IMG/VR virus record: IMGVR_UViG_3300037067_027602
Location: 64,001 to 128,000 of that record
DNA: 64,000 nucleotides
Source of the DNA: a virus
Taxonomy: Duplodnaviria; Caudoviricetes
Direction: 5' to 3' (one strand)
Shown one piece after another: positions 37,402-56,771 of this stretch (position 1 is its first letter; each line of letters starts with the position of its first letter). The notes below the pieces were generated by a model. The model saw nothing but the letters and a program-made list of their open reading frames with translations. It was not told the origin of the DNA and did no database searches. Both the position numbers and the translations under genes were made by a program.

Positions 37402-40400
37402 ACGCCCCGAGGCAGGGCCACTGGCTTGTTTGCGTCCTTAATGAAAGTATACGCCCTGTCGCACCCGATCAGGACCGCGCTATACCTGTCCTTCCTATGT
37501 TTCTTGCTGGGGGAATCCCAGTGCATGTTGCCACGCTTCTCCGTCATGGTGACCACGATGTTCTGTATCTCCCTCACCGTCTGGGATATCTCCGCCATGG
37601 CGGCCAGCATCTCGGCGGACTGGTCCTGCGGCCCGTCCAGCAGGTCCTCGAGGCATGGCATCTGCAGCATCCCGGTCTCCAGCATCAGCTTCATGTTGTG
37701 GTTGGCGTCGTACAGCCAGCCGTAGTCGGAGAACTCCACCAGCTCAAGTATCCTCCTGCCTTTCAATTTCCTGTGCTCGTCGAAATCCCTCTGGAGGATT
37801 ATCTCCTCCCCTTGGGGGGTGTTCTTCTCGTCGGCCAGGAGATCCCGCACCGGCTGCCCGCCGCCGCCCGAGTCCATCGCTATCTCGTCGATGTTGTAGG
37901 CCTTCAACAACGCCCTCATCTGCGCGTGGACGTAGGGGTATGGCTTCTTGTGGAAGCTGTGCATGGCCCGGAACCTGACCAGCCTCCGGTCGAGCAGCAC
38001 CTGGAATATGGCCATGGTGAAATTATCGCTCATCCGGGCGGGGTCGGCCGCCAGGATATTGACGACACCCCTTCTCTTCGGGAGGTACAAGGCGCACCCG
38101 AACTCCCGATGGGACATGGAGGAGTCCAGCAAGGCCCGACTAAAAAACCCTTCGGTGTCGGTGGGGAAGAAGGAGCAGTTCCTGACCGTGGCGTACGGCA
38201 GCGAATAGCTGTGGTCGCTCTCCACGGAAAAATTGTGGACCCATCCCTCGAAATCGAACACCGACGATTTGCGAACTGGAACAGCGGTCCATCCAGCGGG
38301 GTCCCTGAGCCACGCCACGCCGGATCTCGCCACGTCGACGGCCTCAATGTCTCCCGAGGGGGAGCAGAAATTGTGGGACGCCGTGAACACGGCCTCCGGC
38401 CAATCTCCGAATTTCAACGACACGGCCTTCCCCGCATACCATCTGGAAAAAATTTTCCCGACGTCCCCCCATCTTCCCATATGGGTGAACACGGCGTCGC
38501 CGGGGACCACCATCTCCACCGGCTTCTCCCCCGCCATGGTCGTCACCGGCACCCCCGCCGCCAGACAGTATTCCATGCGGAACTCATTGTCCGCCATGTC
38601 CCTTCTCGCCTCATCGATGCTCTCGAGGTTCATGAACCCCTCGGGCATGCGGGTGTACTCAAGGGCGCATAGCGCCCGGTTCTCGTCCATCATGAAGTTG
38701 TATGGGATCTGCCCTCCGGGGACGAGGTCGGCGTTTAGCGGGAAGCCCCTAAGCTCCACGGAGTCCGGGTTTTTCTTGGCCGACTCCAAAATCGCCTCCA
38801 TATAGTTCTGCACCTTCTTCCAGAGGTGGTTGAACTGGTAGTACGCCGTGGAGGTGTAGACGATCTTGTTGTCGTGGAGCTGGCGGATCTTGTCTATTTT
38901 CCCGGCGGCCAGGAGCTTCTTCTGCTCGGCCATCCAGCGGACGGACTCCATCGGGTTCTTGAAGGTGGCCATCATGCCGCGGATCACCAAATTCAGGATG
39001 TCCTCTGGTATCTGCGCCGTCTCGTCCCCCAGGATGCAGTGGTAGCGCGCCCCGCGGATCTTCGTGCCGTCGCCGATCGGCAGCGCCTCGATGAGCGACG
39101 CCCGGCAGTTCGGAGCGGTCTTAAACCGCACCTGGCACATGTCCGTGCCCCTGGTGGGGGCTTTGTCCACGAACCCGCGGAACTCCTTGGATATGGCGTA
39201 GAGGTTCTCCACCTCCGCGAACACGAACTTCGACTGGCGGAAGCCGGGGGCCACGATGCCCACTTTGTCCCCGGGGAAGAACATCCCGCGGAGGACGGTG
39301 AACAGCCCGTCCAGGAACGTGTTGTGGGAGATGAACCCGTTGGCTATGAAAGTGTGGGTCCCCGGGACGCACAGGTCGTACGTGTCCTGCGGGGGGAGGA
39401 CGCCGGTCTCGGTCACCATGTCGAAGAAAAGCCCTCTGGAGATATATTCCCGCAGCCGTTCCCTGGCCTTCCCCCCGGGGATCTCCGACGCATCCAGCTC
39501 CACCAGCAAATTGGCAGCGTCGGCAGGCCTCGCCAAATCATGGACGTTGCGCTTTTTCTTGTAGACGAACTGGGTCGTGCATATCCGTTTCCTCTTGCGG
39601 AGGGAGAGCTCGTTGGCGGCGTCCTCCATCAACATCCCATACCCCGGCGACCTCACCCGGGAGGCCATGAAGACCGAAGCCAGCCCTCCCTCCGGGAGCA
39701 TCACCGGCAGGCCGCGGGTGGCGGCCGCCTCCCCCATGGGGACCAGGAAATCGCCGTTCTGCCTGCCGCTCGCCGACACCAGCACCCCAAGTGAGGCGAA
39801 CATGGCGGACAGCATCTTCTCCTCGGACGCCGTCCTCACCCTGACCAGCCTGGGCTGGCATTGGCTGGCCTTCGACATCGGGCAGCCGCAGGCGTCCAGC
39901 TTGCCGCAAAGGAAAGCCTCGGCCACGGCGGTCCCCCCGGTGAGGATAGACCCTGACGGTGGGAACCAGCCGCCGTCCTCCTGGCGCACGCCGAACCTGG
40001 ACAGGAACCCGTCCACGTCCCCCCCTAGCATGACGGAGTACCCTCTCGACATCTTCTTGACGGCGGGGAGCAGGCCGTTGCGGTCCGCTATCTCGGCTGC
40101 CATCACGGCGGCCCCGGGCCATCTGGCGAAATACGAGCGGTGCCGGAAGTTCGCCCTCCTCAGCCCGGCTGACATCATCCCCAGGAGGTACGCCTCCTCC
40201 GCCCCTGTGGACCCGTCGCCCTCGAAACGGTACGACCCGGACAGATCCATCACCATCACGTCCCCGGGCCTGATGGAGGACATCTCCGCCCATTCCAAGC
40301 TCCCTTTTTTGCCAAGGGTCCTGACCCGGTGCTTGGCGACGCCGTCGTCCACCATCCCGAGCGCGGTCCTGGCCCAATGCACCGGCTCCGGGGCGTTGCG

Positions 40401-40718
40401 GTAGGTGTGGGAGGAGCGTTCGCTGCCGCCCTCCCCCTCGACCATGGCCGACATCTCCCTGAATCCGTGCGGCGCCCCGCCGTGCAGCGCCCCCAGGGTG
40501 GCATACCCGCCGCCGGTGAGGACGACGGTGTCCGGAAGCTTGCATTTCCCCGCGCCGCGGTTGAATATGATGATGACGTTGTTCCTGATCCACATGGCTC
40601 GCAGGGCTAGTTTCTGGGGGGAGGCCAGCTCCACCCCCAATATGTCGCGGGCGGCCTCGCAGGGCTTGTCCTTATACTCTTTTATCAAATCTATCTGGGC
40701 GGCGTTCAAATCAGACAT
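37386..40718 (-). CDS. terL: Terminase large subunit with two inteins (about 572 aa after splicing)
   Basis: Walker A RGAGK/T split by an intein, PGFRQS, IRGAR, Walker B ILGDE, TSTAYYQFNH, nuclease LAADPA...DNF and KDRYSA. Confidence 0.92.
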   Translation of the reverse strand: MSDLNAAQIDLIKEYKDKPCEAARDILGVELASPQKLALRAMWIRNNVIIIFNRGAGKCKLPDTVVLTGGGYATLGALHGGAPHGFREMSAMVEGEGGSERSSHTYRNAPEPVHWARTALGMVDDGVAKHRVRTLGKKGSLEWAEMSSIRPGDVMVMDLSGSYRFEGDGSTGAEEAYLLGMMSAGLRRANFRHRSYFARWPGAAVMAAEIADRNGLLPAVKKMSRGYSVMLGGDVDGFLSRFGVRQEDGGWFPPSGSILTGGTAVAEAFLCGKLDACGCPMSKASQCQPRLVRVRTASEEKMLSAMFASLGVLVSASGRQNGDFLVPMGEAAATRGLPVMLPEGGLASVFMASRVRSPGYGMLMEDAANELSLRKRKRICTTQFVYKKKRNVHDLARPADAANLLVELDASEIPGGKARERLREYISRGLFFDMVTETGVLPPQDTYDLCVPGTHTFIANGFISHNTFLDGLFTVLRGMFFPGDKVGIVAPGFRQSKFVFAEVENLYAISKEFRGFVDKAPTRGTDMCQVRFKTAPNCRASLIEALPIGDGTKIRGARYHCILGDETAQIPEDILNLVIRGMMATFKNPMESVRWMAEQKKLLAAGKIDKIRQLHDNKIVYTSTAYYQFNHLWKKVQNYMEAILESAKKNPDSVELRGFPLNADLVPGGQIPYNFMMDENRALCALEYTRMPEGFMNLESIDEARRDMADNEFRMEYCLAAGVPVTTMAGEKPVEMVVPGDAVFTHMGRWGDVGKIFSRWYAGKAVSLKFGDWPEAVFTASHNFCSPSGDIEAVDVARSGVAWLRDPAGWTAVPVRKSSVFDFEGWVHNFSVESDHSYSLPYATVRNCSFFPTDTEGFFSRALLDSSMSHREFGCALYLPKRRGVVNILAADPARMSDNFTMAIFQVLLDRRLVRFRAMHSFHKKPYPYVHAQMRALLKAYNIDEIAMDSGGGGQPVRDLLADEKNTPQGEEIILQRDFDEHRKLKGRRILELVEFSDYGWLYDANHNMKLMLETGMLQMPCLEDLLDGPQDQSAEMLAAMAEISQTVREIQNIVVTMTEKRGNMHWDSPSKKHRKDRYSAVLIGCDRAYTFIKDANKPVALPRGVWIKR
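38178..38567 (-). other. Intein 2 (130-aa mini-intein) in TerL
   Basis: MEY|CLAAGVPV ... FTASH (block B) ... VHNFSVESDHSY...TVRN|C. Confidence 0.88.
39321..40544 (-). other. Intein 1 (408 aa) in TerL Walker A with degenerate LAGLIDADG endonuclease
   Basis: GAGK|CKLPDT ... YDLCVPGTHTFIANGFISHN|T; internal AYLLGMMSAG and AFLCGKLDACG. Confidence 0.9.
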
Positions 40719-45070: not shown

Positions 45071-45280
45071 CTGGTTTACCAAACTTGGACAATCCTCCGT
45101 CCGCATTTGGAAGGTGGCCTTTCCGTCCACCTGATCTTGTTTTTTGGTTATTAGAACTCGACGCCAACCCGACCAGTTATAGGGTTGGGCTCCCCGGACG
45201 GAATCACGCCGTCCCTGCCGCGTGTGCCGCCGTGAGGCGGTGCCAGCGGCGAGGCTGTGAGCCTGGGTGGCTTCACCTTC
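45070..45280 (-). ncRNA. TnpB omega/reRNA scaffold (predicted)
   Basis: Cluster of hairpins (GCCGCC-n-GGCGGC-like, GGACGG..CCGTCC, CCAACCC..GGGTTGG, AGGTGG..CCACCT) overlapping the tnpB 3' end up to the right end. Confidence 0.55.
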
Positions 45281-46419
45281 AGGAAAACGTCCTGGAGGTA
45301 CGACCAGGATTCCAGCGTCAAAGTCTCCTTACCGGATCTTCCTTCCAGGTTCACCGAAGGCACTTTGCGCTTGGCAATCTTGTCCGTGAAAGTCTTGCGC
45401 TCCTTGATCCCCATGCCGCGCCGGGCGATGACCAGCCCGGCGGCGGTGTGGCGGTTCAAAGAGTACATGGCTTTGTATTTGAGGTTGCCGAGGATGGAGG
45501 TGTACGCCGGGTTTACTTCCACCAGCGGCACGCCCTCCTTCTCCGACCGTGACCTCAAAGATTCCAAAAGCTTGTCGTGAACGAAGTTGGACTTCATCCG
45601 GTTGAATTTCTTGCCCTTGTCCTTTTTCTTCTTGTCCTTGCCGAAATCCAAATCCTCAATGACCAGCGTCTTGCCGGAGGCCTTCGCCACCCCGACAACC
45701 TCTTTCGCCATCATCCGGACATCGTAAATTCGTTTGCCGTTGGATGCGAACTGGAGCCGCTGCCCGAGCAGGTATTTGTGCTTGAACAAGTTCCCGTGGC
45801 CGTCCACCTCCACGACGGCGAGGCCGTCGGGGTTGCAGTCGACGCCGATCGCTCCAGGGACTGTGGGTTGTTTGGCCCTCGGCTCGACGTTCCAACCGAT
45901 CTTCACCTCGAACTTGTCGTCTTTTCGGACGATTCGGACATCATAACAAGTCAAGTCTAGATTGACGAACTTCTTTGGGATAAACAATTTCCCCTCCAAC
46001 CATAGGCCGCGGTCGGATGGATCGTTAACTAACAACCTACCACCGTCCACCCGGATGTTCGGGTTGCCGTTCTTGGACTTGTCACCCATGGAATAGAGCT
46101 GCGAGTTGCGTTTGGCGTTCCAATCTTCTTTGTCGAGGTTGCCGGAGACCATGGCTTCCCACAGCTTCCTCCCGCCGAACAAAGCGTTATCGAAGACCAT
46201 CCCGGACGCCAGGGAACAAGCGTCCGAGACGTATCGCTGGTTCAGCTCGGGGTAGTAGTTCTTCTTGACATGAAGTTTGACATCGTTGCCGATAAGGTTG
46301 TGCTTGTGGTAGGCTTGATAGGCGGAGCGCACAGCGGAGCACTGGAGCTTCATAAGATTCAGCAATCTAAGTTCCGTCGGCTGATCGAACCAAACGACGC
46401 CGTGTGCTATTCTACGCAT
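45151..46419 (-). CDS. tnpB: TnpB RNA-guided nuclease
   Basis: RuvC-I AIGVDCN, RuvC-II LVIEDLDF, VNPAYTS, RuvC-III NRHTAAGLVIARR; start MRRIAH overlaps the tnpA stop. Confidence 0.9.
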   Translation of the reverse strand: MRRIAHGVVWFDQPTELRLLNLMKLQCSAVRSAYQAYHKHNLIGNDVKLHVKKNYYPELNQRYVSDACSLASGMVFDNALFGGRKLWEAMVSGNLDKEDWNAKRNSQLYSMGDKSKNGNPNIRVDGGRLLVNDPSDRGLWLEGKLFIPKKFVNLDLTCYDVRIVRKDDKFEVKIGWNVEPRAKQPTVPGAIGVDCNPDGLAVVEVDGHGNLFKHKYLLGQRLQFASNGKRIYDVRMMAKEVVGVAKASGKTLVIEDLDFGKDKKKKDKGKKFNRMKSNFVHDKLLESLRSRSEKEGVPLVEVNPAYTSILGNLKYKAMYSLNRHTAAGLVIARRGMGIKERKTFTDKIAKRKVPSVNLEGRSGKETLTLESWSYLQDVFLKVKPPRLTASPLAPPHGGTRGRDGVIPSGEPNPITGRVGVEF

Positions 46420-47017
46420 CTTTGCGCTTCCTTCCGCCACGTTTTCCATATAATCTACCACTATAAGACGCTACCAACGAGACAATGTCTTCCGCAAACT
46501 CCTCTTCAAATTCTTTGTTTTCTTTTTGTTCCAGAACGACCACCTCAACACCGAAGTTTCGACAATAAATTTGAAATGTCTCAAAACCGAATCGGGTGAG
46601 ACGATCCTTGAATTCGACGACGACTCGGACGACGTCTGGACGGGCTATGCGTTCAAGCAGGCGCTTGAACTGTTTCCTACCATCGTTCAACCCCGACCCA
46701 ATCTCTTTGAATAGCTCAACAGTCCAACCGCTTTTGGCGCAATGCTCCAGTACCCGCCCTACTTGCCGTTCCAAATTTTCGGCTTGTTTCTGAGTGCTGG
46801 TACGACAATAACAGCAACTTACCGTGCGGTCTTTATCAACTTTCCCCTGGATGCGTCGGACTTCGCTTAAAGGAACCCGTCTATGACCACCTTCAGTCCG
46901 TATGGTTTGTATTTGCCCGGAGGCGTCCCATCGACGGAGCGTCCGAACATCCACCCCAAGTTCTCTTGAGGCCTTCGACAAAGTCAAATGCTCCGTCGTA
47001 GTGTTTTTGAAACTCAT
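46412..47017 (-). CDS. tnpA: IS607 serine recombinase transposase
   Basis: N-terminal MerR-like HTH (ASRELGVDVRTLRRWD...RTEGGHRR), catalytic YCRTS, LERQ, EIGSGLN and DRLTRFGFE. Confidence 0.95.
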   Translation of the reverse strand: MSFKNTTTEHLTLSKASRELGVDVRTLRRWDASGQIQTIRTEGGHRRVPLSEVRRIQGKVDKDRTVSCCYCRTSTQKQAENLERQVGRVLEHCAKSGWTVELFKEIGSGLNDGRKQFKRLLERIARPDVVRVVVEFKDRLTRFGFETFQIYCRNFGVEVVVLEQKENKEFEEEFAEDIVSLVASYSGRLYGKRGGRKRKDA

Positions 47018-48691: not shown

Positions 48692-49741
48692 TCAGCCTAT
48701 GATCCGGTATCCCGGATCGACATCGTAACCCTCCCCGGCCAGGTGAGCCCTGCCGGCGTCCGTGATGACCCTGCCCTGGGCCGTCCTCATAATGAACCCG
48801 AGCCTCGTCAGCCAGGGCTCCACCACCGTGTCCACCGTGCGCTTGTCGGCGTCCACGGCGCGGCAGGCGGCGTCCAGCCCGACCGGGCGCTCCGACCTGT
48901 GCAGGAAACGGAGATAGGCCTGGTCCTGGCGGGTCAGCCCGCGCCTGTCGACCCCCTCCAAGGAGAACATCTTCTCCACCGCCACGGAGTTGGCCGTCTT
49001 CCCGCACCCGTCCGGCCTCGCCACCGCCATGATCCTCGCCAAGGCCGGCAGGAAAGTGGCCACGGCCAGCCGCGGCACGCCCCTGCTCCTGGCCGCCAGC
49101 ATGGCGGGGACGCCGTCCGCCAGGGGTATGCCCATCTCCCTGGCGGCGTTGGAGACGATGGTCTCCATGTCGGCGTCGGAGTAGGCCTCGAACGTCAGCT
49201 TCTCCTGGAAGCGGTCGAGGAACGGCTTCGGGATCGACCCGGCGTAGTTCGTCGCCGCCACCATCGTGAAGTGCGGGAGCTTCACCGTCACCGTCTTGCT
49301 GCCGCCGTATGGGTTCATCTTCCTCATCGTGAGGACCCGGGACTCCAGGGCCGTGTGGAGCTGCTCCATCACGCCTTTGTCGAGCCTCTCGACCTCGTCA
49401 AGGAAGACTATGGGGAAACCGCAGCTCATCACCCCGGGCAGCCTCTCCATGTCGTCCCCATAGGCCTTGGCCGTGAGGGGGGCCATCCATTTGGCCATGT
49501 CCTCCATGAACTTGCAGGTCTTTATCGACGCCGCGTTGTAGGGAAAAAAACGGTTCTCCGTGGAATTGGACAATATCCTCGCCAGCGTGGTTTTCCCCAG
49601 CCCCGGCGGGCCGTCCATCAAAATGTGCGGCATGGGCGAGTCCATCAGAAGCGACGCCTTGATTATCAGCGACACCTTCTCCTTGAAATGGGACTGCCCG
49701 ACGAACCCGTCAAGAGTTTGCGGCCTGTAGGCTTCCATCAA
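48692..49741 (-). CDS. ruvB: Holliday junction branch migration ATPase RuvB
   Basis: RPQTLDGFVGQ, GPPGLGKTTLA, FLDEV.RL, FTMVAAT, DRF, RSRGVPR and VEPWL..GFI.RT..GR. Confidence 0.92.
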   Translation of the reverse strand: MMEAYRPQTLDGFVGQSHFKEKVSLIIKASLLMDSPMPHILMDGPPGLGKTTLARILSNSTENRFFPYNAASIKTCKFMEDMAKWMAPLTAKAYGDDMERLPGVMSCGFPIVFLDEVERLDKGVMEQLHTALESRVLTMRKMNPYGGSKTVTVKLPHFTMVAATNYAGSIPKPFLDRFQEKLTFEAYSDADMETIVSNAAREMGIPLADGVPAMLAARSRGVPRLAVATFLPALARIMAVARPDGCGKTANSVAVEKMFSLEGVDRRGLTRQDQAYLRFLHRSERPVGLDAACRAVDADKRTVDTVVEPWLTRLGFIMRTAQGRVITDAGRAHLAGEGYDVDPGYRIIG

Positions 49742-50444
49742 ACACCTCTTTTCCTTTTTTGTTTCTGCCGTCCGGGGGGAAGTGGTACATCCACTGGTGC
49801 CCCATCGCTGCTATCCTGTCCATCACCTCGTCCGCCGTCCCCCCGCCCACCACCTCTAGGTGGCGCCTGGCGAGGATATGGAGGAACTGGTGGCCTTTCC
49901 TGGGGGAAACCGACGCCTTCGACCCGGCCATCACCAGCCGGATCACGCCTTTCCCCCCGCCGATGTCGGCCATGAACTCGTCATGGCAATCCCCGCCGGC
50001 CCCGTGGAGGAAGTACTCCCTCAGGTGCCAGATCTCGTGGAAGGCCATGTACTCCGGCGGGAACTGCTGCCCCCCGGAAAACCAGGAGTCGCCGGCCACC
50101 AAGAATTTCCTCCACCCCCGGGAGAGGGACCCGGAGGTCATCCCGAAAGAGGAGAACAGGCACAACGCCCTGGGGTTGGCCCTCGTCCACGAGGCCACTT
50201 TCTCCGCCATGGCGGGGATGGAGACGTCGAAAGTCGCCAGCAAGGCGGACTCCGCCGTGCGGTGGACCTCCACAAGGGGCGCCGCTAGGGTCTCATCGAG
50301 GGTCATCGCCCTGGACACGGGCCTCAGAGCCTTCGTCCATAGCTTCCTCGCCCTCCTGGACACCCCCTCGGCCACGAGCATCCTCATGGGGGAGCCCTCC
50401 ATGGGCGGTGGCAGCTCCACTTCGTCAAATTTCAGGTCATCCAC
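49710..50444 (-). CDS. Zincin-like metallopeptidase (HExxH)
   Basis: MAFHEIWH...DEFMAD (HExxH plus ExxAD); overlaps the RT stop by 8 nt. Confidence 0.6.
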   Translation of the reverse strand: MDDLKFDEVELPPPMEGSPMRMLVAEGVSRRARKLWTKALRPVSRAMTLDETLAAPLVEVHRTAESALLATFDVSIPAMAEKVASWTRANPRALCLFSSFGMTSGSLSRGWRKFLVAGDSWFSGGQQFPPEYMAFHEIWHLREYFLHGAGGDCHDEFMADIGGGKGVIRLVMAGSKASVSPRKGHQFLHILARRHLEVVGGGTADEVMDRIAAMGHQWMYHFPPDGRNKKGKEVFDGSLQAANS

Positions 50445-51591
50445 GGCGCGCCTCCTTCAACTCCGCGAGTTTTCGTTTGAACCACGACCCCTGGGCCTTG
50501 TCGGCCCCGTCGATGTAGGCGACCTCCCCGGACAGCTTCATCATGTCCCCGCCACCTTTGGTGATGGCGTTGTGGAGGGCGGCCCTGATTTTGCGCCTCC
50601 GCCACTTCGGGACGGTCGCCCGCCCCTTCTCCACCACGCTCAGCCCGACGACCCGCTGGGCGCCGCCCCTGGCCATGACGGTGGTCTTCTTGCGGTTGAC
50701 CACCAGACCGTGCCGTGAGGCCAGCCCCCCCGCCACGCCCATCAGCTTGCCGCATTCCTTCCAGTCCCATGACATCGTGATGTCGTCGGCGTACCTGGTG
50801 TAGGACGCGTCCAGCCTAATCGCAGCCCTGGACAGATTCTCGTCGAAGGCGTACATGGCGAGGTTGGAGAGGGCCGGGCTCGCCGGGCTCCCCTGAGGCA
50901 GCCGGCCGTCGAGGAGGCAGAGCTCCAGCGCGGCGCCGATCCATTTGACGTTGGAGGCGTCGACGCAGCGCCAAAGGCCGCGCCACACCATCCTCCTGGA
51001 GACTGACGGGAAGAAATCCTTGAGGTCCATCTTGACGACCGTCCTTTTCCCGGCGTGGGGGACGGCGCAAGTCCTCGTCGACCTCCCGGGAACGAAGCCG
51101 TGGGCCGCCTCGTGGGGGATGGACTTATGGTAGACTACCATGTCGAGGAACTTCCTCTGGAACTCCGCCAGCGGCTTGCACGGGGCCTCGACCGTCCGCC
51201 TGCCGCCGGACTTCTTGGGGATGGTGAATACCCTGTACGCTTTCCTTCCCGACTCCAGCAGGGATCCGAGAACAAGCGGGCACATGTCGAACGCCCTGGC
51301 CAGGGAATTCAGGTCGTGCGGGCGGGACACTTTCACCAGGCATGCCTCCGGCGGCAAGTCCATGTCGTAGTCCAGAACGCCGGCCAGCCCCAGGCGAATC
51401 AACTCGGCGTAGCCGCGGTTCGGGATCATCATCCCGCCGGGGAGGCCGGACAGGATCTCCCCCATCCCATGGCCGCCGGCCGGGGCGGGATCCGAGGGGC
51501 AAGCCCCCATGAACAAGTGGATGTAATCCTCCACGAAACCTAGCTCCCTCATCAACGCCGCCCTGGCCCTGTCATCAGTTCTTGAACTCAT
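50437..51591 (-). CDS. Retron-type reverse transcriptase
   Basis: YRVFTIPKKSGGRR.VEAP, AHGFVPGRS, CAVPH (NAxxH position), DLKDFFPS, LPQGSPASP.LSN, YTRYADD, VNRKKT and QRVVGL (VTG position); short retron-like thumb, no maturase/endonuclease extension. Confidence 0.9.
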   Translation of the reverse strand: MSSRTDDRARAALMRELGFVEDYIHLFMGACPSDPAPAGGHGMGEILSGLPGGMMIPNRGYAELIRLGLAGVLDYDMDLPPEACLVKVSRPHDLNSLARAFDMCPLVLGSLLESGRKAYRVFTIPKKSGGRRTVEAPCKPLAEFQRKFLDMVVYHKSIPHEAAHGFVPGRSTRTCAVPHAGKRTVVKMDLKDFFPSVSRRMVWRGLWRCVDASNVKWIGAALELCLLDGRLPQGSPASPALSNLAMYAFDENLSRAAIRLDASYTRYADDITMSWDWKECGKLMGVAGGLASRHGLVVNRKKTTVMARGGAQRVVGLSVVEKGRATVPKWRRRKIRAALHNAITKGGGDMMKLSGEVAYIDGADKAQGSWFKRKLAELKEARRG

Positions 51592-51919
51592 CCAGCACCT
51601 CCTCGACGCTCATTCCGACGAAATACTTGTCAAGCAGCCCGGGCACGTCCACGAACTCCAGCCCCGCCTCCCTGGCGAGCCTGTCCAGCTCCTTGTCCGG
51701 ATTGTCCGCCCATTCCGGCGGGAGCGTCCCGCCGTCGGGGAGCTTCCTCGTCCGCCGCTCGTTCGACTCCTGCATCAGGCGGAACTTCAACCGCGTCGAA
51801 TACTCCCTCCAATTCTCGCCCGGCAACGGCGGCACCCGTCTGAACCAGAACCTGTCCCCGCCGGGGAGCACCCTGACGGCGTAATCCGCCGGACGGCCGC
51901 CGGCGGACGTCACCGACAC
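51575..51919 (-). CDS. Hypothetical protein overlapping the RT start (5' end uncertain)
   Basis: Phage-like codon usage; 17-nt overlap with the RT. Confidence 0.55.
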   Translation of the reverse strand: MSVTSAGGRPADYAVRVLPGGDRFWFRRVPPLPGENWREYSTRLKFRLMQESNERRTRKLPDGGTLPPEWADNPDKELDRLAREAGLEFVDVPGLLDKYFVGMSVEEVLDEFKN

Positions 51920-51929
51920 CCATGCAGGA

Positions 51930-52145
51930 ACGGGCTCCTCCGCTAGTGTAGCCCAAAGCTTGTCGGAGAGTCCAGAATCCGCAATATGATCCCTTCCCGG
52001 GCTGGTATATCTTCGCCATAGCGAATTCCCGGGGAACGTTACTGTCGTCCGTGGCGACCGCCACGATGACTCTGGTTAAATTCTTCCTATTGATGTTTTT
52101 GGGATCGACCCTCCCATATTTCCCGTTCCAAGTAGCTTTCATCAA
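51930..52145 (-). pseudogene. Probable truncated early gene (5' part)
   Basis: MKATWNGK...YCGFW...YTSGG is protein-like and AT-richer, then continues as out-of-frame Arg/Gly-rich sequence over the next gene. Confidence 0.4.
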
Positions 52146-52636
52146 ACAGCCCTCCTTTCTTCAAATTCCAGTTTCCTCGCGTCCAGGCAGAACATGTCCT
52201 GGCAGACGTAGCCTTTCTCCTCGAAATACAGGAACGAGGGAGGGGTGTTCCCCTTGAACTCGTTCCTGAAACCCTCCAGGCACGGCCCTTTGAACAGGGG
52301 ATAGCCGCCGTAGGCCCTGGAGAAAGGGTAGCCGTCCATCGCCCAGCCCGTGCCGTCCAGACGGACGACCTCGAAGCCCTCGACCGTTTGGAGCTTCTCC
52401 GCGAAGTAGGACGCCTCGACGCCCCAACGGTTGACGATCTCGACCGCTTCGTCGACCTTGGGGAGGCAAGCCTCGGAGATGTCCATGAAAAAGTTGGGGG
52501 CGACGGGGCACAACCCCTCGTCCAGCATGGACTCCCGGTCGTAATAGGCCATGCGGTTCCACGCGAAGCCGCCGCAATCCATGTCGGGGCGGGCCCTCGC
52601 CAGCCTGTCGTTGTAGTAGTGTTTGAAGAAACGCAT
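52142..52636 (-). CDS. Hypothetical protein
   Basis: 164 aa, coupled to neighbours. Confidence 0.65.
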   Translation of the reverse strand: MRFFKHYYNDRLARARPDMDCGGFAWNRMAYYDRESMLDEGLCPVAPNFFMDISEACLPKVDEAVEIVNRWGVEASYFAEKLQTVEGFEVVRLDGTGWAMDGYPFSRAYGGYPLFKGPCLEGFRNEFKGNTPPSFLYFEEKGYVCQDMFCLDARKLEFEERRAV

Positions 52637-52639
52637 GGC

Positions 52640-53716
52640 CTAGCCTTTCCTTATTTTTTCGAGGATAATCTTAATCGCGTCAATATAGACGCCAGCGTCC
52701 TCCAACGGGTTGTGGTTGCCACCGGACGCGAAGAATTCCCCGCCCCAAGAAATCATGGCGTCCGGGGTCAACCCGCAGGAGACGTAGCTAGGGTAGAGGA
52801 CGACCCCTTTCCCCTGTCCCCAATGCTGCAGGTCCGCGCCCTCATGCTGGCGGTCCTTCTCCGATATGCAAGGGCGTCCACCCTCGCCTTTCCCCCAAAT
52901 AGGCGAGTCGAGGGGAGGGGCTTCCTTTTGTAGCTCCCCCGCCAGCCGCATCAACTCCCCGGCCTTCTCCGGGGTGAGATCGTAAACAGGCATGATCGAC
53001 TTCCTTTTCCTCGCGTTTTTGCGGAGCTGCCCAACTAGCTTTTTGGAGACGGTGACGATCTCTTTCCATGGAAGGCCGACGGACAGGCTGGGGGTCTTCA
53101 GGATCTCCAACTCCTCCCTGGACGGGGCGTCCACCCGCATGCCGTCGACGACGATCTGCTTTGAGTAGGACGGGGACTCATCCCCGAACGAGCCGATCGT
53201 GGCGTGGATCCCGTCGAGGTTGATCTCGTCCCCTTTGTCCGTGGGCGAGTGGAAGGCGGGCATGGATGCGTGGGAGTGGACGCTGCCCGCCACCATGGAG
53301 CCCTCCGGCATCCCTCCGATGGCGGTGCTTCTCCTTGACCATACCCCGTTCATCACCAAAATGGACGGGAGGGACAGGTCATAGCTAGCGGACGCCGGCG
53401 TCACCACCTGCCTGGGGACGACATATGACCAATCGCCGTCCTCCGTCACCCTCAAAACCACCACGCACTCGCACCCCAGGTCGCGGTGGACCTCCCTGAA
53501 CAGGGACATCACGCTCCTGAGCAGCCAGCCCGGGAGGGAGATGCCGGGGCCGGGCTTGACGGAGGGCATGGCCTCGAAGCGCGGGGCGGCCGGGACGACC
53601 GCCTCGAACAGCCTCGTCACACGCTTGACGAAAGTGCCGTTTCCGGCCACCAGGGGAACGCCGGCCGGGGCGGCGTCCAAAGCCGCCTGGTCGGGGATGT
53701 AAATAGGCTCCCGCAT
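52640..53716 (-). CDS. JAB/MPN deubiquitinase-like protein (PRTRC protein A-like) with C-terminal extension
   Basis: E...P.Q.V...GSVHSHASMPAFHSPTDKGDE (HxH-x7-S-x2-D), GIHATIG; N-terminal LVAGNG.F. Confidence 0.85.
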   Translation of the reverse strand: MREPIYIPDQAALDAAPAGVPLVAGNGTFVKRVTRLFEAVVPAAPRFEAMPSVKPGPGISLPGWLLRSVMSLFREVHRDLGCECVVVLRVTEDGDWSYVVPRQVVTPASASYDLSLPSILVMNGVWSRRSTAIGGMPEGSMVAGSVHSHASMPAFHSPTDKGDEINLDGIHATIGSFGDESPSYSKQIVVDGMRVDAPSREELEILKTPSLSVGLPWKEIVTVSKKLVGQLRKNARKRKSIMPVYDLTPEKAGELMRLAGELQKEAPPLDSPIWGKGEGGRPCISEKDRQHEGADLQHWGQGKGVVLYPSYVSCGLTPDAMISWGGEFFASGGNHNPLEDAGVYIDAIKIILEKIRKG

Positions 53717-53746
53717 TTGGGGCCTCCTGTTTTAAAGGGGTGGAGA

Positions 53747-54316
53747 TTAGAGGGAGACGCACCGCGGCTCGTTGGCGGCCGTGGCCGGTTTGCCGAACTT
53801 CTGGGGGTACTTGGCCACGAGCCCGGCGAAGGACGCCAGGCGCTCGTACTTGACGCCAAGGGCGAACAAGGGGTTGGCGGCCGAGGCTTTCTCCCACTCG
53901 GCCAGGTCTTTCATCCTGGGGTCTAGCCCGGTCTTGCTGAGGTCGTTGTTGAAGGCGGACTCAAGGAACCTGCCGGGGATCAGCCCGGCGGACTCCCACA
54001 CCTTCTCGCTCAGCTTCCCCCGGGACTCGACCTGCCCGAAGCAGATCCTGCCGTCGTGATGGACGTTCGGGAGCGGCGGGAGGAAGAGATCGTCGGCCCC
54101 GGACTCCAGGGGCTCGACCGTGCATGTGACATGGACGGGGTCCAAGACCCCGCTTTCCCCGACGGGGACGAAGAACTGGAGAAAGGGGAAAGACAGTTTG
54201 AACCGCCGCGCCCCTTGCGTTATGACCACGTTCCTCGGCCTCCGCTCGATGACGAAGAGGACCGCGCCGCCCCCCTCAAGGGAGAAGGCGCAGTCGACGG
54301 GCAGCCGATCGAACAC
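53747..54316 (-). CDS. Prokaryotic E2-like protein (PRTRC protein B-like)
   Basis: LSFP.L.F, PLPNVHHDGRICFG (catalytic Cys position), F.ESAFN.DL. Confidence 0.8.
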   Translation of the reverse strand: MFDRLPVDCAFSLEGGGAVLFVIERRPRNVVITQGARRFKLSFPFLQFFVPVGESGVLDPVHVTCTVEPLESGADDLFLPPLPNVHHDGRICFGQVESRGKLSEKVWESAGLIPGRFLESAFNNDLSKTGLDPRMKDLAEWEKASAANPLFALGVKYERLASFAGLVAKYPQKFGKPATAANEPRCVSL

Positions 54317-54319
54317 GGC

Positions 54320-54706
54320 TCAGCCCTTGACGCCGGAGACCTTGACGAACTCCAGGAGATCGCCGCCCTTGAGGATGTAGTCCTCCCCCACTTGCATGGG
54401 CTCCATGCCCAGGCTTGGGTTGGAGACCATCGTCACCTCGCCACCGTAGCAGCCGACGGACTCGCGGACGGCGGGGTCGTTGGCCAGGGAGGAGACCGTC
54501 CTACCGACAAGCCCGTTGTCCTTGAGCTTGTTGGTCGCGCATTGGACGGTGGCCCACTCCGGCTCGGGGCCGGCGGCGACCTCCGGGCGCGCCAAGCGGG
54601 CGGACTCCGCCGCGCGCACCGCGTCCATGATGCTTTCGACCCTCTCACGCTCCTCGTTCTCGTCCTGCTCGTGCCCCAGATACAGATCCTGTTCCTCGCT
54701 CATCAT
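54320..54706 (-). CDS. Ubiquitin-like (beta-grasp) protein with acidic N-terminal extension
   Basis: C-terminal DYILKGGDLLEFVKVSGVKG* ends in Gly as in PRTRC-type Ubls; start trimmed to MMSEEQ. Confidence 0.8.
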   Translation of the reverse strand: MMSEEQDLYLGHEQDENEERERVESIMDAVRAAESARLARPEVAAGPEPEWATVQCATNKLKDNGLVGRTVSSLANDPAVRESVGCYGGEVTMVSNPSLGMEPMQVGEDYILKGGDLLEFVKVSGVKG

Positions 54707-54725
54707 CGTTCCCTTTTCCTTTTTC

Positions 54726-54748
54726 GCCGGCGGAACCATTCCGCCGGC
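54726..54748. other. Perfect 10-bp hairpin upstream of the Ubl RBS
   Basis: gccggcggaa-cca-ttccgccggc; no U-tract follows it on either strand. Confidence 0.6.
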
Positions 54749-54750
54749 CC

Positions 54751-54957
54751 TCAAACCTTTTTCCCGACGACCACGTCGGCCGCGGGAAAGTGCCTCAACT
54801 TCAGAACTTTTCCCCGGCGCCACAACAATAGCACGCGGCGCCCGTCTTTGTCAAGCCTTGGAAGAGCGTCCGTGTACCATGTCCTCCGCCTTCCCTCCTT
54901 CGTGTACATGTCGCAATCCACACCGATGTCGAGGAACGCCTTGAACGGGTGGCGCAT
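54751..54957 (-). CDS. Small basic hypothetical protein
   Basis: MRHPFKAFLDIG... 68 aa. Confidence 0.5.
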   Translation of the reverse strand: MRHPFKAFLDIGVDCDMYTKEGRRRTWYTDALPRLDKDGRRVLLLWRRGKVLKLRHFPAADVVVGKKV

Positions 54958-54976
54958 GGCGTCCGGGAGCTTGCCC

Positions 54977-55885
54977 CTAGACATCGGCGGACACCATCCC
55001 GGAGGCTTCGCGCAACATCCTTTTGTCGGACTCATGCAACCCCAACAGGAAGTTCTCCCACCAGATCCTCTGCCGCCCATGGACAAAGGGCAGGACATCG
55101 TCCGGATCCAAGGGATAACGCTTGTCGGCCATCTCCCGCAGGACGTCTATCTCCGCGTCGCAGCCACAGACCAACCTCGCCAGCCTCTTGGAGCCATGGC
55201 CGTCCCCGTCGAGGCTCTCCATGGCGGAATGGATTAGCATCGCGTTCTCCTCCATGAACGCGGAAACTTCCGGATTGGTGAAGTCCCGCTCCTCGAAGGC
55301 CTTGTTGGCGGCGCCCGCGATCGCCGGCCACTCCTCCGCCTTCCTGGACGGGGAGTCAATCCCCGGTTGTTTTTTCCTCATCCAGTCCCGGAAAATCCCG
55401 CCCAGGTTCGAGAGCTCCTGCGCGCCGTCGATGGCGTAGACGAAGCCCTTGTCCACGGCGGCGGGCTCCTTGGCGGGAGGCGGGACGGGGCCGCAGACTT
55501 TCTCCATGGCGATAGGCTCTGTCTCGGCGAGGCCGCCCTTCGGGGTGACGACCGCCACGAAGAAGGTCTCCGCGAGGCAGACCGCCACCGCGGAGGCCAC
55601 CGCCTCGTCGCCGTCGAAGACGACGCCGACCTCCCTGATCTCCGGGACGGGGTCGCCGTCGAGGACGGGCTCCAGGCCGAACTCCGCCGGGTCGCAGGCC
55701 TTGAGGTTGACGGTCCCTTTGGGAAGGACGACGCCCATGGACTCCAGGGAGGGGCAGGAGATCTTCGCCGCGGCGAACGCCGCCCGGGCGGAGGACAGCA
55801 GCTTCTTGACGTCGGGGGTGATCTCCACCTGGACGACGTACTCATGGTCTTCGACCAGAGAGGGAGAGACAAAATATTTACCCAT
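54977..55885 (-). CDS. Hypothetical two-domain protein
   Basis: 302 aa; first gene after the ncRNA pair; N-domain resembles 56784-57200. Confidence 0.7.
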   Translation of the reverse strand: MGKYFVSPSLVEDHEYVVQVEITPDVKKLLSSARAAFAAAKISCPSLESMGVVLPKGTVNLKACDPAEFGLEPVLDGDPVPEIREVGVVFDGDEAVASAVAVCLAETFFVAVVTPKGGLAETEPIAMEKVCGPVPPPAKEPAAVDKGFVYAIDGAQELSNLGGIFRDWMRKKQPGIDSPSRKAEEWPAIAGAANKAFEERDFTNPEVSAFMEENAMLIHSAMESLDGDGHGSKRLARLVCGCDAEIDVLREMADKRYPLDPDDVLPFVHGRQRIWWENFLLGLHESDKRMLREASGMVSADV

Positions 55886-55912
55886 GATAAACCTTCGTTT
55901 TTGGGGTGGAAA

Positions 55913-56020
55913 GGCCTCCTCCGGGCACTGATCGAAGAACCTGTTCTTCGATACCCTCCAACCAGGACAACCGTCCCGGATCCAGGGCGCTCCGCCCCGT
56001 GTAGCTGCCCGGAGGAGACC
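55913..56020 (-). ncRNA. Retron-like msr-msd ncRNA, unit B (short msd)
   Basis: 12-bp perfect a1/a2 repeat (55916-55927 / 56006-56017), unpaired G in AGC right after the arm, two msr hairpins, UGGAGG, 10-bp msd hairpin 55931-55952. Confidence 0.7.
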
Positions 56021-56029
56021 AAAAAAGAA

Positions 56030-56215
56030 CCCCCTCCCCCCTGAATGGCGGACGGATCGCTAAGTGAGGGCTTGTGATACTTTTTCCGGTGTTTTTCGCC
56101 GAAGGCCCGGCAAAAGTATCTCAAGCTTGAGCTTAGTGATACGTACGGCGTCTTCCTCCACGCCGAAGGCAACCTTTCGGCGGGGGCGTTGCGCCCCCTG
56201 TGCCGGGGGAGGGGG
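56030..56215 (-). ncRNA. Retron-like msr-msd ncRNA, unit A (long msd)
   Basis: 11-bp perfect a1/a2 repeat (56030-56040 / 56205-56215), G after the arm, two msr hairpins (56161-56198), UGGAGG, long imperfect msd hairpin about 56049-56147. Confidence 0.78.
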
Positions 56216-56222
56216 AATAAAA

Positions 56223-56771
56223 TCAGACGGAGCCCGGGGCGACCCAGGCCACGAGTGCCAGGACGGTCTCGCCGTCGGGGGCGACGCCGGCGAACAGCTC
56301 GGGCTCGATGTCGTCGGGGACGCCTCTCCTGTCGGTCAACGACACCAGGAGCTCCTTGTTGCGGCGGCTGGGGAGCAATTTCAGGAAATCCTCGTTCCCT
56401 CCCTGCAGCTCGTGGTAGACCTCCATGGTCATGCGGTAGAGCTTGCAGTCGTCGTTGTGGATGTCAATCTCCAGTTTGCCGTTCGGGTCGTTGTCCTGCC
56501 CGAGCCAGAACACGTCCCGGTCGTACAGGGAGAGGACTCCGCCGCCCTCGGGGGTGCTGTCGGTGGGACCGAACGAGTAGGTCTCTCCCAGGTCGTCGAC
56601 CATGTCGTCCTCGCTTTGGTTGAACGCCGCCCCGTCGTAGTTGGCCAGAACTTCGGCGAGATCCTCGAAGAAACGTCTGCGGGTATGGGGGTCGCCAAGC
56701 CACTCGCTATCCGGCGCGCCCATAAGCTGGATGGCCTGCAATAGCTCGGTCTCAGTAAGGTGCTTGCTCAT
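56223..56771 (-). CDS. Hypothetical acidic phage protein
   Basis: 182 aa with GGAG RBS. Confidence 0.65.
   Translation of the reverse strand: MSKHLTETELLQAIQLMGAPDSEWLGDPHTRRRFFEDLAEVLANYDGAAFNQSEDDMVDDLGETYSFGPTDSTPEGGGVLSLYDRDVFWLGQDNDPNGKLEIDIHNDDCKLYRMTMEVYHELQGGNEDFLKLLPSRRNKELLVSLTDRRGVPDDIEPELFAGVAPDGETVLALVAWVAPGSV

What the first reader, a model, noticed from the sequence alone, without database searches (positions are those of the whole stretch)
50437..56215. Split retron architecture: ncRNAs 4.3 kb from the RT with a Ubl/E2/JAB cassette between them
Seen: on one tightly packed strand the order is ncRNA-A, ncRNA-B, 302-aa protein, small ORF, Ubl, E2-like, JAB, two or three ORFs, RT. 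Known: retron ncRNA is normally adjacent to the RT or separated by one effector gene. Inference: either the ncRNAs act in trans after processing from a long transcript, or the ubiquitin-like genes are functionally tied to the retron. I know of no described retron linked to Ubl conjugation.
Basis: partly seen in the sequence, partly recalled or inferred. Interest (0 to 1): 0.75.

Follow-up and report, generated by a model that had tools for sequence, protein, structure and literature searches.

The report
Phage retron with remote RNAs, Ubl kit
An uncultured 156-kb phage carries a retron-type reverse transcriptase whose two likely template RNAs lie 4.3 kb away, with a ubiquitin-like tagging kit that lacks its activating enzyme in between; I found the enzyme-plus-kit pairing in other phages too and in no paper I searched.

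Summary
On the minus strand the order is ncRNA-A, ncRNA-B, a 302-aa gene, a small gene, Ubl, E2-like, JAB, two or three unknown ORFs, retron-type RT, then an HExxH protein and RuvB.

- **The RNAs.** Both are closed by long a1/a2 stems. They rank 1 and 3 of 697 such elements in the genome. They share a covarying hairpin with RNAs next to the RT in three related phages. Their long hairpins fold better as cDNA than as RNA.
- **The pairing.** The RT and Ubl-kit pairing is not peculiar to this phage. 21 of the 79 nearest viral RT loci carry a ThiF E1 beside the RT: 6 of these also have a JAB-profile hit and 13 more have a weaker JAB-like gene. The three nearest JAB relatives share only Ubl, E2, JAB, ThiF, a Cys-rich gene, RT, HExxH and RuvB with one another.
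- **What is peculiar here.** The split layout is: relatives place the RNAs 3' of the RT or after RuvB. The loss of E1 is also specific to this phage.
- **Limits.** The kit occurs without any RT in most phages that have it. The 302-aa and small genes look like bystanders.

Function is unknown. Earlier notes of this scan report the same pairing on other DNA.

The parts
56030..56215 (-). ncRNA-A. An 11-bp a1/a2 closing stem (CCCCCUCCCCC / GGGGGAGGGGG), then G, two or three small hairpins, a roughly 90-nt long hairpin (candidate msd), and a U-run after a2.
   Evidence: MFE -94.5, z -6.5; rank 1 of 697; the long hairpin folds at -51.6 with 7 G-U pairs in cDNA sense, against -36.2 with 0 in RNA sense.
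55913..56020 (-). ncRNA-B. A 15-bp a1/a2 closing stem with a bulged G after a1, two small hairpins resembling those of A, and a short 9-bp hairpin (candidate short msd).
   Evidence: MFE -66.2, z -4.25; repeat I20; rank 3 of 697; the msr part folds better on the minus strand, -23.4 against -15.7.
54977..55885 (-). 302-aa protein of unknown function. Probably a phage backbone gene and not part of the system.
   Evidence: No family hit and a low-confidence Atlas model. Its only homolog, at 57% identity, lies in contig L162 with no ncRNA upstream and no Ubl cassette downstream.
54751..55000 (-). Small protein of at least 79 aa, start uncertain. Probably a backbone gene. A sigma-70-like site (54854-54825) lies inside it, upstream of Ubl.
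   Evidence: moderate GC3; 42% identical over 79 aa to L162:3039-3338; promoter-like site, 10 of 12 matches.
54320..54706 (-). Ubiquitin-like protein candidate, 128 aa. It has an acidic N-terminal tail and a C-terminal motif DYILKGGDLLEFVKVSGVKG that ends at the stop codon.
   Evidence: phmmer 1.9e-14 to L005; invariant Y, D, E, F, G, K and terminal G; relatives carry two or three tandem copies, each ending AGxKG. The fold is not confirmed: pLDDT 57 and no clear match.
53747..54316 (-). E2-like (UBC-fold) protein, 189 aa, with the PNVHHDGRICFG active-site loop.
   Evidence: Prok-E2_D, 5e-5, below cut-off; invariant N84, C92, G94; pTM 0.69; more than half of the top 50 chains are E2, UEV or RWD proteins, Z 4-5.4, about 120 residues aligned.
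52640..53716 (-). JAB/JAMM metallopeptidase, 358 aa. The JAB domain covers about residues 1-230; the C-terminal 130 aa are unknown.
   Evidence: Prok-JAB 0.0026; PRTRC_A 1.4e-4; 1,193 remote homologs; invariant E83, H147, H149, S157, D160.
52142..52636 (-). 164-aa orphan protein in the position where relatives have ThiF.
   Evidence: no hits; no usable hit.
51575..52145 (-). One gene with a +1 frame switch near 51950, or two overlapping genes (the 171-aa and 114-aa ORFs). Unknown function.
   Evidence: The coding signal moves from the 171-aa frame to the 114-aa frame at about 51950.
50437..51591 (-). Retron-type reverse transcriptase, 384 aa. It has YADD, region X as CAVPH (consensus NAXXH) and region Y as VVG (consensus VTG). 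It is the only RT found in the genome.
   Evidence: RVT_1, 5e-22; retron_St85_RT, 2.4e-55, below cut-off; PADLOC RT_XIII 6e-64, with many retron types close behind.
49710..50444 (-). HExxH (FHEIWH) protein, 244 aa, overlapping the RT stop by 8 nt. It is conserved after the RT in the three closest relatives.
   Evidence: hhalign E 5.5e-5, motif aligned.
48692..49741 (-). RuvB-family AAA+ ATPase, 349 aa, overlapping the HExxH gene. It is conserved in the same place in the three closest relatives.
   Evidence: E 1e-62 to 1e-73 against L002, L003 and L005; RuvB_N 8.7e-28, RuvB_C 3.9e-17.

Best explanation
This is a phage-borne retron of a class not described in the papers I searched, in which a retron-type RT is co-inherited with a ubiquitin-like conjugation kit (Ubl, E2-like, JAB, normally a ThiF E1).

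In this phage the single RT serves two msr-msd RNAs that have come to lie at the head of the gene block, 4.3 kb upstream. It therefore works on them at a distance, either after they are cut from a long transcript or as separate short transcripts.

**Shown**
- The RT is of retron type.
- The two RNAs are closed, multi-hairpin elements.
- They share a covarying hairpin with the RNAs of relatives.
- Their long hairpins are better as cDNA.
- The Ubl, E2 and JAB genes keep their catalytic or terminal motifs.
- E1 is absent.
- The RT-kit pairing recurs across divergent phages.

**Inferred**
- The RT makes msDNA from both RNAs.
- The RT-msDNA complex and the Ubl kit act in one pathway. My best guess rests on analogy with Cap2/Cap3 control of the CD-NTase in type II CBASS: conjugation and JAB trimming would regulate the RT complex or a partner of it during infection, in conflict with host defences or rival phages.
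- In this phage, activation of the Ubl depends on a host E1 or an unrecognised enzyme, or only part of the kit still works.
For: **RT.** The best family matches are retron RTs. The H of NAXXH and the G of VTG, the most conserved residues of those retron motifs (PMC7736814), are present.

**RNAs.**
- z -6.5 and -4.25; ranks 1 and 3 of 697 in the genome.
- No coding frame in this stretch.
- A G follows a1 in both.
- Relatives have the same architecture with z -6.7 to -9.6.
- The shared hairpin is 89% paired, with 5 of 7 pairs compensatory and a covariation score of 0.765 against 0.215 in shuffles, 0 of 500 as high.
- The long hairpin of A folds at -51.6 in cDNA sense against -36.2 in RNA sense. 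All 13 long hairpins tested in relatives fold better in cDNA sense, some by only 1-2 kcal/mol, with 24 G-U pairs against 5.

**Pairing.**
- L002, L003 and L005 keep Ubl-E2-JAB-ThiF...RT-HExxH-RuvB, while nearly all other genes in their 20-kb loci are singletons.
- ThiF is adjacent to the RT in 21 of the 79 nearest viral RT loci (six also with a JAB-profile hit, 13 more with a weaker JAB-like gene), in at least three different genomic backgrounds.
- A single clade of all linked RTs is not rejected (p-AU 0.28).

**Kit.** Motifs are intact in the Ubl, E2 and JAB, and the E2 model has a UBC-like fold.

**Action at a distance.** It is plausible, since msr and msd expressed from separate promoters still gave RT-DNA in retron Eco1 (PMC8989520).
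Against: - No msDNA, transcript or conjugate has been observed.
- The RT has N to C in NAXXH and T to V in VTG and sits on a long, unplaced branch.
- ncRNA-B has only a 9-bp candidate msd.
- The two RNAs of this phage fit the relatives' hairpin alignment only with a bulge or a 4-nt loop.
- E1 is absent, so the kit may be crippled.
- The kit occurs without an RT in 77 of 80 loci and in whole contigs of 223 and 527 kb, so it does not need an RT.
- 58 of the 79 RT relatives have no kit.
- The Ubl fold was not confirmed.
- Relatedness of the phages could explain part of the shared order.
Confidence: 0.6

Rival explanations
1. Neighbours only. The RT with its RNAs and the Ubl kit are two independent accessory modules that happen to sit in the same early DNA-metabolism region of related phages. 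The shared order would reflect descent, not a shared pathway.
For: - The kit is found alone in 77 of 80 loci and in complete large phages.
- Most RT relatives lack it.
- The RNAs move about relative to the kit.
- Here the kit has lost E1 while the RT is intact.
- A sigma-70-like site lies just upstream of Ubl.
Against: - In L002, L003 and L005 almost only the kit, the RT, HExxH and RuvB are shared, while the surrounding genes are singletons.
- ThiF abuts or overlaps the RT in several distinct backgrounds: RuvB type, SNF2 plus primase-MCM type, and the L095/L137 type.
- The label 'linked' is strongly clustered on the RT tree, and one origin is not rejected.
Confidence: 0.22
2. A decaying remnant. 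The system is being lost in this phage: E1 and the Cys-rich partner gene are gone, the RNAs were displaced by rearrangement, the RT motifs have drifted, and nothing functional remains.
For: - No ThiF and no fam61 homolog in 156 kb.
- CAVPH and VVG stand in place of NAXXH and VTG.
- There is a frame switch in the gene before the RT.
- An IS607-type recombinase lies nearby.
- The RNAs are in a position seen in no relative.
Against: - All ORFs are open with strong GC3.
- Every invariant residue of the JAB, E2 and Ubl is kept.
- Both RNAs keep near-perfect closing stems: 11 consecutive pairs in A, and 15 in B with one G-U.
- YADD and the most conserved H and G of the RT are kept.
Confidence: 0.1
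3. The two structured elements are not retron templates. They would be other phage RNAs (regulatory sRNAs, processing or termination signals) unrelated to the RT.
For: - No Rfam match.
- They are 4.3 kb from the RT.
- A U-run follows A.
- B has a very short third hairpin.
- Weak terminator-like sites lie just upstream.
Against: - The architecture is the same as that of RNAs flanking the RT or RuvB in relatives, with a shared covarying hairpin.
- The cDNA-sense bias of the long hairpins fits reverse transcription.
- The genome has only one RT and no other comparable closed element.
Confidence: 0.08

Closest known systems
Retrons (RT + msr-msd ncRNA + effector; types I-XIII of Mestre et al. 2020, PMC7736814)
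   Same: - Retron-clade RT with YADD and regions X and Y.
- RNAs closed by a1/a2 inverted repeats, with a G after a1, small msr hairpins and a long msd hairpin.
- One strand, operon-like packing.
   Different: - The RNAs are 4.3 kb and seven or eight genes from the RT, whereas described retrons have them contiguous or one gene away.
- Two RNAs serve one RT.
- It is carried by a large, apparently lytic-type phage and not by a bacterial defence island.
- The partner genes are a Ubl, E2 and JAB kit, which is none of the 13 described effector sets.
- The RT matches no single type clearly (RT_XIII 215 bits against about 190 for several others).
PRTRC (ParB-related, ThiF-related cassette; NCBIfam TIGR03735 etc.) and Prok-E2_D/Prok-JAB cassettes of plasmids and conjugative elements
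   Same: - The JAB gives weak hits to PRTRC_A and Prok-JAB.
- The E2-like gives a weak hit to Prok-E2_D.
- Relatives have a ThiF directly after the JAB.
   Different: - All hits are far below the curated cut-offs.
- No ThiF in this phage.
- No ParB was seen.
- Phage context.
- Linked to an RT.
BilABCD (bacterial ISG15-like) and type II CBASS Cap2/Cap3 ubiquitin-like conjugation in anti-phage defence
   Same: A Ubl with a C-terminal Gly, an E2 with a catalytic Cys and a JAB trimming protease. The poly-Ubl precursors in relatives would need JAB processing. Regulation of a nucleotide polymerase (the CD-NTase) by conjugation is the nearest mechanistic analogy. This comparison rests on my own knowledge of those systems.
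   Different: - No PADLOC model of any defence system matched the kit proteins.
- No CD-NTase.
- Encoded by the phage, not the host.
- E1 is missing here.

Membership tests
Retron | RT belongs to the retron/retron-like clade | tested here: met
   NCBIfam retron_St85_RT 2.4e-55 (188 bits, below the 235 cut-off). The top 25 PADLOC hits are all retron RT models, best RT_XIII at 6e-64.
Retron | Region X NAXXH motif and region Y VTG triplet (H and G most conserved; PMC7736814) | tested here: inconclusive
   This phage has CAVPH and VVG, so H and G are kept while N and T are replaced. L002 and L005 have NAxxH, and all three relatives have VTG.
Retron | msr-msd RNA closed by a1/a2 inverted repeats, with a branching G after a1 and a long msd hairpin | tested here: met
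   The fit is structural only; the branch itself is not shown.
Retron | ncRNA gene contiguous with the RT (or one effector gene away) | tested here: not met
   There are 4,322 nt and seven or eight genes between ncRNA-B and the RT start, and no intergenic room next to the RT.
Retron | Production of msDNA with a 2'-5' branch | not testable with these tools
   The only indirect sign is the cDNA-sense bias of the long hairpins.
Ubiquitin-like conjugation cassette (PRTRC / Bil-like) | JAB/JAMM protease with the E...HxH...S..D site | tested here: met
   E83, H147, H149, S157 and D160 are invariant in 30 homologs. Prok-JAB scores 0.0026, below cut-off.
Ubiquitin-like conjugation cassette (PRTRC / Bil-like) | E2 with a UBC fold and a catalytic Cys | tested here: met
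   N84, C92 and G94 are invariant. The model (pTM 0.69) aligns to many E2, UEV and RWD chains at the modest Z of 4-5.4. Foldseek gave nothing.
Ubiquitin-like conjugation cassette (PRTRC / Bil-like) | Beta-grasp Ubl ending in Gly | tested here: inconclusive
   The conserved C-terminal ...AGxKG motif sits at the stop codon, and relatives have tandem repeats. The fold model has pLDDT 57 and no beta-grasp match.
Ubiquitin-like conjugation cassette (PRTRC / Bil-like) | ThiF-family E1 | tested here: not met
   No PF00899 hit and no hit to a profile of the relatives' ThiF anywhere in 156 kb. It is present directly after the JAB in 76 of 80 related loci by clustering, and a profile search adds L003 and L005.
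PRTRC | ParB-family protein in the cassette | not tested
   No ParB domain appeared among the Pfam hits of the block. I ran no dedicated search.
Known anti-phage systems with Ubl parts (Bil, CBASS type II) | Match to the PADLOC models of those systems | tested here: not met
   No PADLOC hit for the Ubl, E2, JAB or neighbouring proteins at E 0.01.

The most novel reading that the evidence does not exclude
Large phages carry a new class of retron in which the RT-msDNA complex is wired to ubiquitin-like conjugation (with HExxH and RuvB partners in this lineage). It uses arrays of two or more template RNAs that can sit kilobases from the RT and act in trans. This phage would then show that the system tolerates loss of its own E1.
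Probability: 0.4. Interest if true: 0.85.

Novelty: new variant of a known kind. Interest (0 to 1): 0.68.

Why it matters
Retrons are known as bacterial anti-phage sensors with the template RNA next to the RT. Here a phage owns the retron, the templates come in pairs and can be far from the enzyme, and the conserved partners are ubiquitin-like tagging enzymes rather than a toxin.

If the link is functional, it joins two systems never connected before, reverse-transcribed DNA and protein tagging. It would also point to a phage-side use of both, in counter-defence, exclusion of rival phages or replication.

Trans-acting multi-template retrons would also interest retron-based genome editing.

Tried and rejected
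- **Rfam.** Gathering and E-value modes gave no family for the RNAs, and there are no tRNAs.
- **Close relatives.** Single-protein searches for the RT and JAB in IMG/VR and GenBank phages found none. The word-indexed search found only the JAB itself. Full HMMER was needed to find the family.
- I used the search for related loci with alignments instead.
- **DGR idea.** A phage RT with TR/VR repeats was dropped, because every family match is retron-type and no such repeats surfaced.
- **Plasmid leading-region idea.** An ssDNA promoter of a plasmid leading region was dropped once the record proved to be a phage with a tape-measure gene.
- **Unknown ORFs.** The 302-aa protein is not a relative of the Cys-rich gene that precedes the RT in relatives (hhalign probability 0.2%), and neither is the 164-aa protein. 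The Atlas gave nothing usable for either.
- **PDB.** The JAB profile has no PDB relative by sequence.
- **Ubl fold.** The fold prediction was too poor to use.
- **Candidate RNAs elsewhere.** An 'RNA upstream of the cassette' in L095 overlaps a likely small gene plus a terminator, so I did not count it.

Full report
**What the window is.** It is bases 64001-128000 of a 156,497-bp linear IMG/VR virus record, judged 89% complete. Nearly all genes are on the minus strand. One is a 4,943-aa protein with a phage minor-tail (tape-measure) domain. GC is about 62%.

**The observation.**
- two structured non-coding units, 56030-56215 and 55913-56020;
- a 302-aa ORF and a small ORF;
- a Ubl candidate, an E2-like protein and a JAB protein;
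- a 164-aa ORF and a stretch that changes coding frame near 51950;
- a 384-aa RT.

Third-position GC shows strong single-frame coding for all the genes and none for 55900-56240. The RT start lies 4,322 nt from the end of ncRNA-B. The genes around the RT overlap, so no RNA gene can sit beside it. The RT is followed by an HExxH protein and a RuvB, both overlapping their upstream neighbours.

**The RT.** Pfam gives RVT_1. NCBIfam's best hit is the retron St85 RT (2.4e-55, below its cut-off). The 25 best PADLOC hits are all retron RT models, with RT_XIII first but several types close behind. It has YADD. Of the two retron hallmarks defined by Mestre et al. (PMC7736814), it keeps the most conserved residues: the H of NAXXH (here CAVPH) and the G of VTG (here VVG). 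Its nearest database relatives are only 35-40% identical. It is the only RT found in the genome.

**The RNAs.**
- Both fold into multi-hairpin structures closed by a long terminal stem, with z -6.5 and -4.25 against dinucleotide shuffles.
- Of 697 minus-strand elements in the whole genome with a closing stem of 11 bp or more, they rank 1st and 3rd.
- Each has a G right after a1. The two share the first hairpins (CAC-GGGGCG-NNN-CGCCC, then a hairpin with a GUU-containing loop, then UGGAGG).
- Rfam has no match.

**The same kind of RNA in relatives.** The three nearest relatives carry RNAs of the same build, with a closing stem, two small hairpins and one long hairpin:
- L003:14064-14227, directly 3' of the RT, z -6.7;
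- L002:17448-17618 and 17678-17858, after RuvB, z -8.4 and -9.6;
- further ones in L002, L003 and L005.

A hairpin of the type GAUG-UUU-CAUC is shared. On an alignment of eight copies, 89% of cells pair and 5 of 7 pairs show compensatory changes. The covariation score is 0.765 against 0.215 in shuffles, with 0 of 500 as high, and the slid registers score far lower. The two copies of this phage fit that alignment only with a bulge or a four-base loop.

**A test for reverse transcription.** The long hairpin of A folds at -51.6 kcal/mol with 7 wobble pairs when read as the complement (the sense of a cDNA). As RNA it folds at -36.2 with none. The msr part of B shows the opposite bias. All 13 long hairpins tested in relatives fold better in cDNA sense, some by only 1-2 kcal/mol, with 24 wobble pairs against 5. 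It fits hairpins selected to fold as msDNA, but it is indirect.

**The Ubl kit.**
- *JAB.* It gives weak hits to Prok-JAB and PRTRC_A. The word-indexed search found only the protein itself, while full HMMER found 1,193 remote homologs. E83, H147, H149, S157 and D160 are invariant in 30 of them.
- *E2-like.* It has a weak Prok-E2_D hit and an invariant N...C.G loop. Its model (pTM 0.69) aligns to many E2, UEV and RWD chains at Z 4-5.4. Foldseek alone found nothing.
- *Ubl candidate.* It shares a C-terminal motif, DYILKxGDxLEFVKxAGxKG, that ends at the stop codon. In L002, L003 and L005 the homolog is a tandem of two or three such units, like a poly-ubiquitin precursor. The fold could not be confirmed.
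- *E1.* No ThiF exists anywhere in the record, either by Pfam or by a profile of the relatives' ThiF.

**Is the kit tied to the RT? Starting from the JAB.** An alignment of JAB homologs brought in 80 phage loci.
- In 76 of them a ThiF follows the JAB. An E2-like gene, often about 850 aa, precedes it, and Ubl-like genes are near.
- Most of these are phages with their own multisubunit RNA polymerase.
- Only three, the closest JAB relatives (contigs of 175-181 kb), have an RT within 10 kb.
- Whole-contig searches found no RT in four kit-bearing records, including one of 223 kb and a complete one of 527 kb.

So the kit does not need an RT.

**Starting from the RT.** An alignment of the four RTs brought in 79 viral RT loci.
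- 21 of them have a ThiF beside the RT. That count includes the two contigs already seen, and L084, which my automatic label missed.
- L137 has E2-JAB-ThiF-RT, L095 has JAB-ThiF overlapping the RT, and L139 has the RT followed by JAB-ThiF.
- A 15-locus clade has a small gene, a 450-630-aa gene, a JAB-like gene (13 of the 15 loci; hhalign 75%), ThiF and the RT, followed by an SNF2 helicase and a primase-MCM.

**What L002, L003 and L005 share.** Nearly every other gene in their 20-kb loci is a singleton. The shared families are Ubl, E2, JAB, ThiF, a Cys-rich 300-aa gene, RT, HExxH and RuvB. That is hard to explain by descent alone.

**The RT tree.** Linked RTs fall in four or five places, but the backbone is weak. 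A single clade of all linked RTs is not rejected (p-AU 0.28). Either reading, one old pairing or several, favours a functional tie.

**What is peculiar to this phage.**
- *The RNA position.* The RNAs lie upstream of the kit. In relatives, the closed structured elements that I read as RNAs lie directly 3' of the RT in most of the 14 further ThiF-linked loci scanned, or after RuvB. 'Cassette between RNA and RT' is therefore not a property of the class.
- *Missing genes.* E1 and the Cys-rich gene are absent.
- *Likely bystanders.* The only homolog of the 302-aa protein (57% identity) lies on a 4.3-kb metagenome contig, L162. Its order is p168-like, p182-like, an extra 158-aa ORF, p302-like, a 224-aa ORF, the small-ORF homolog, and then an unrelated gene. 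It has no RNA before p302 and no Ubl after the small gene. The 302-aa and small genes are therefore probably backbone genes, and the RNA pair looks like an insertion between two of them.

**Transcription.** This is unresolved. The consensus scan found no promoter-like site before ncRNA-A. A U-run follows the closing stem of A. A good sigma-70-like site lies just upstream of Ubl. Action at a distance is plausible, because in retron Eco1 msr and msd expressed from separate promoters still gave RT-DNA (PMC8989520).

**Literature and earlier notes.** Four searches (retron + ThiF; PRTRC + reverse transcriptase; retron + ubiquitin-like + phage; phage-encoded retron) found no paper describing this pairing. 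Earlier notes of this scan report the same RT plus Ubl-kit pairing in phages from many other genomes. I reached it here independently, from the JAB and the RT searches.

**Verdict.** The features are real. The RT and the two RNAs most likely form a retron that works at a distance. The Ubl kit is a recurrent partner of this RT lineage in phages, though each can occur without the other. The split layout and the E1 loss are local rearrangements, not the design of the class. What the pairing does is unknown. My regulatory model, by analogy with CBASS Cap2/Cap3, is an inference.

Noticed in passing
window 45151-47017 (-): A serine recombinase with an N-terminal MerR-type HTH (201 aa, 46412-47017) overlaps a 436-aa ORF (45151-46461). 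The local GC drops to 0.54. This is the layout of an IS607-type element inserted downstream of the RuvB block.
   Followed up: no
window 51575-52145 (-): The coding signal jumps from the frame of the 171-aa ORF to that of the 114-aa ORF near 51950, with no stop in the first frame. It could be a +1 frameshift, an assembly indel or two overlapping genes.
   Followed up: partly
L002:8307-8744, L003:8182-8697, L005:8101-8733: The Ubl homologs of the three closest relatives are tandem arrays of two or three units, each ending AG(S/T/R)KG. L003 and L005 have one or two extra residues after the last unit, like poly-ubiquitin precursors that need trimming.
   Followed up: partly
L002:12350-13234, L003:12015-12893, L005:12657-13586: A conserved 300-aa protein with a PEKCCxNCxGTCGK cysteine cluster and no Pfam match. 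It sits directly upstream of the RT in L002 and L003, and two genes upstream in L005. It is absent from this phage.
   Followed up: partly
L137:9285-9350: A tRNA-like element (GGUUCGAUUCC T-arm, 3' ACCACCA) directly follows a closed structured RNA, between ThiF and the gene before the RT.
   Followed up: no
window 37386-40718 (-): A 1,110-aa protein with weak Hint and intein-splicing domain hits, suggesting an intein inside a structural gene.
   Followed up: no
window 10363-25194 (-): A single 4,943-aa ORF with a phage minor-tail (tape-measure) domain in the middle, which is unusually long for such a protein.
   Followed up: no
L051 and about 70 similar loci (L006-L081): A conserved block in phages that encode multisubunit RNA polymerase: SbcC-like ATPase, radical SAM, WYL_2, an 850-aa E2-like protein, JAB, ThiF, Ubl/ThiF genes, then RNA polymerase beta' and beta. 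No RT lies within 10 kb.
   Followed up: partly
window 56021-56029 (-): A run UUCUUUUUU follows the GC-rich closing stem of ncRNA-A. It could end a short transcript between the two RNAs.
   Followed up: no
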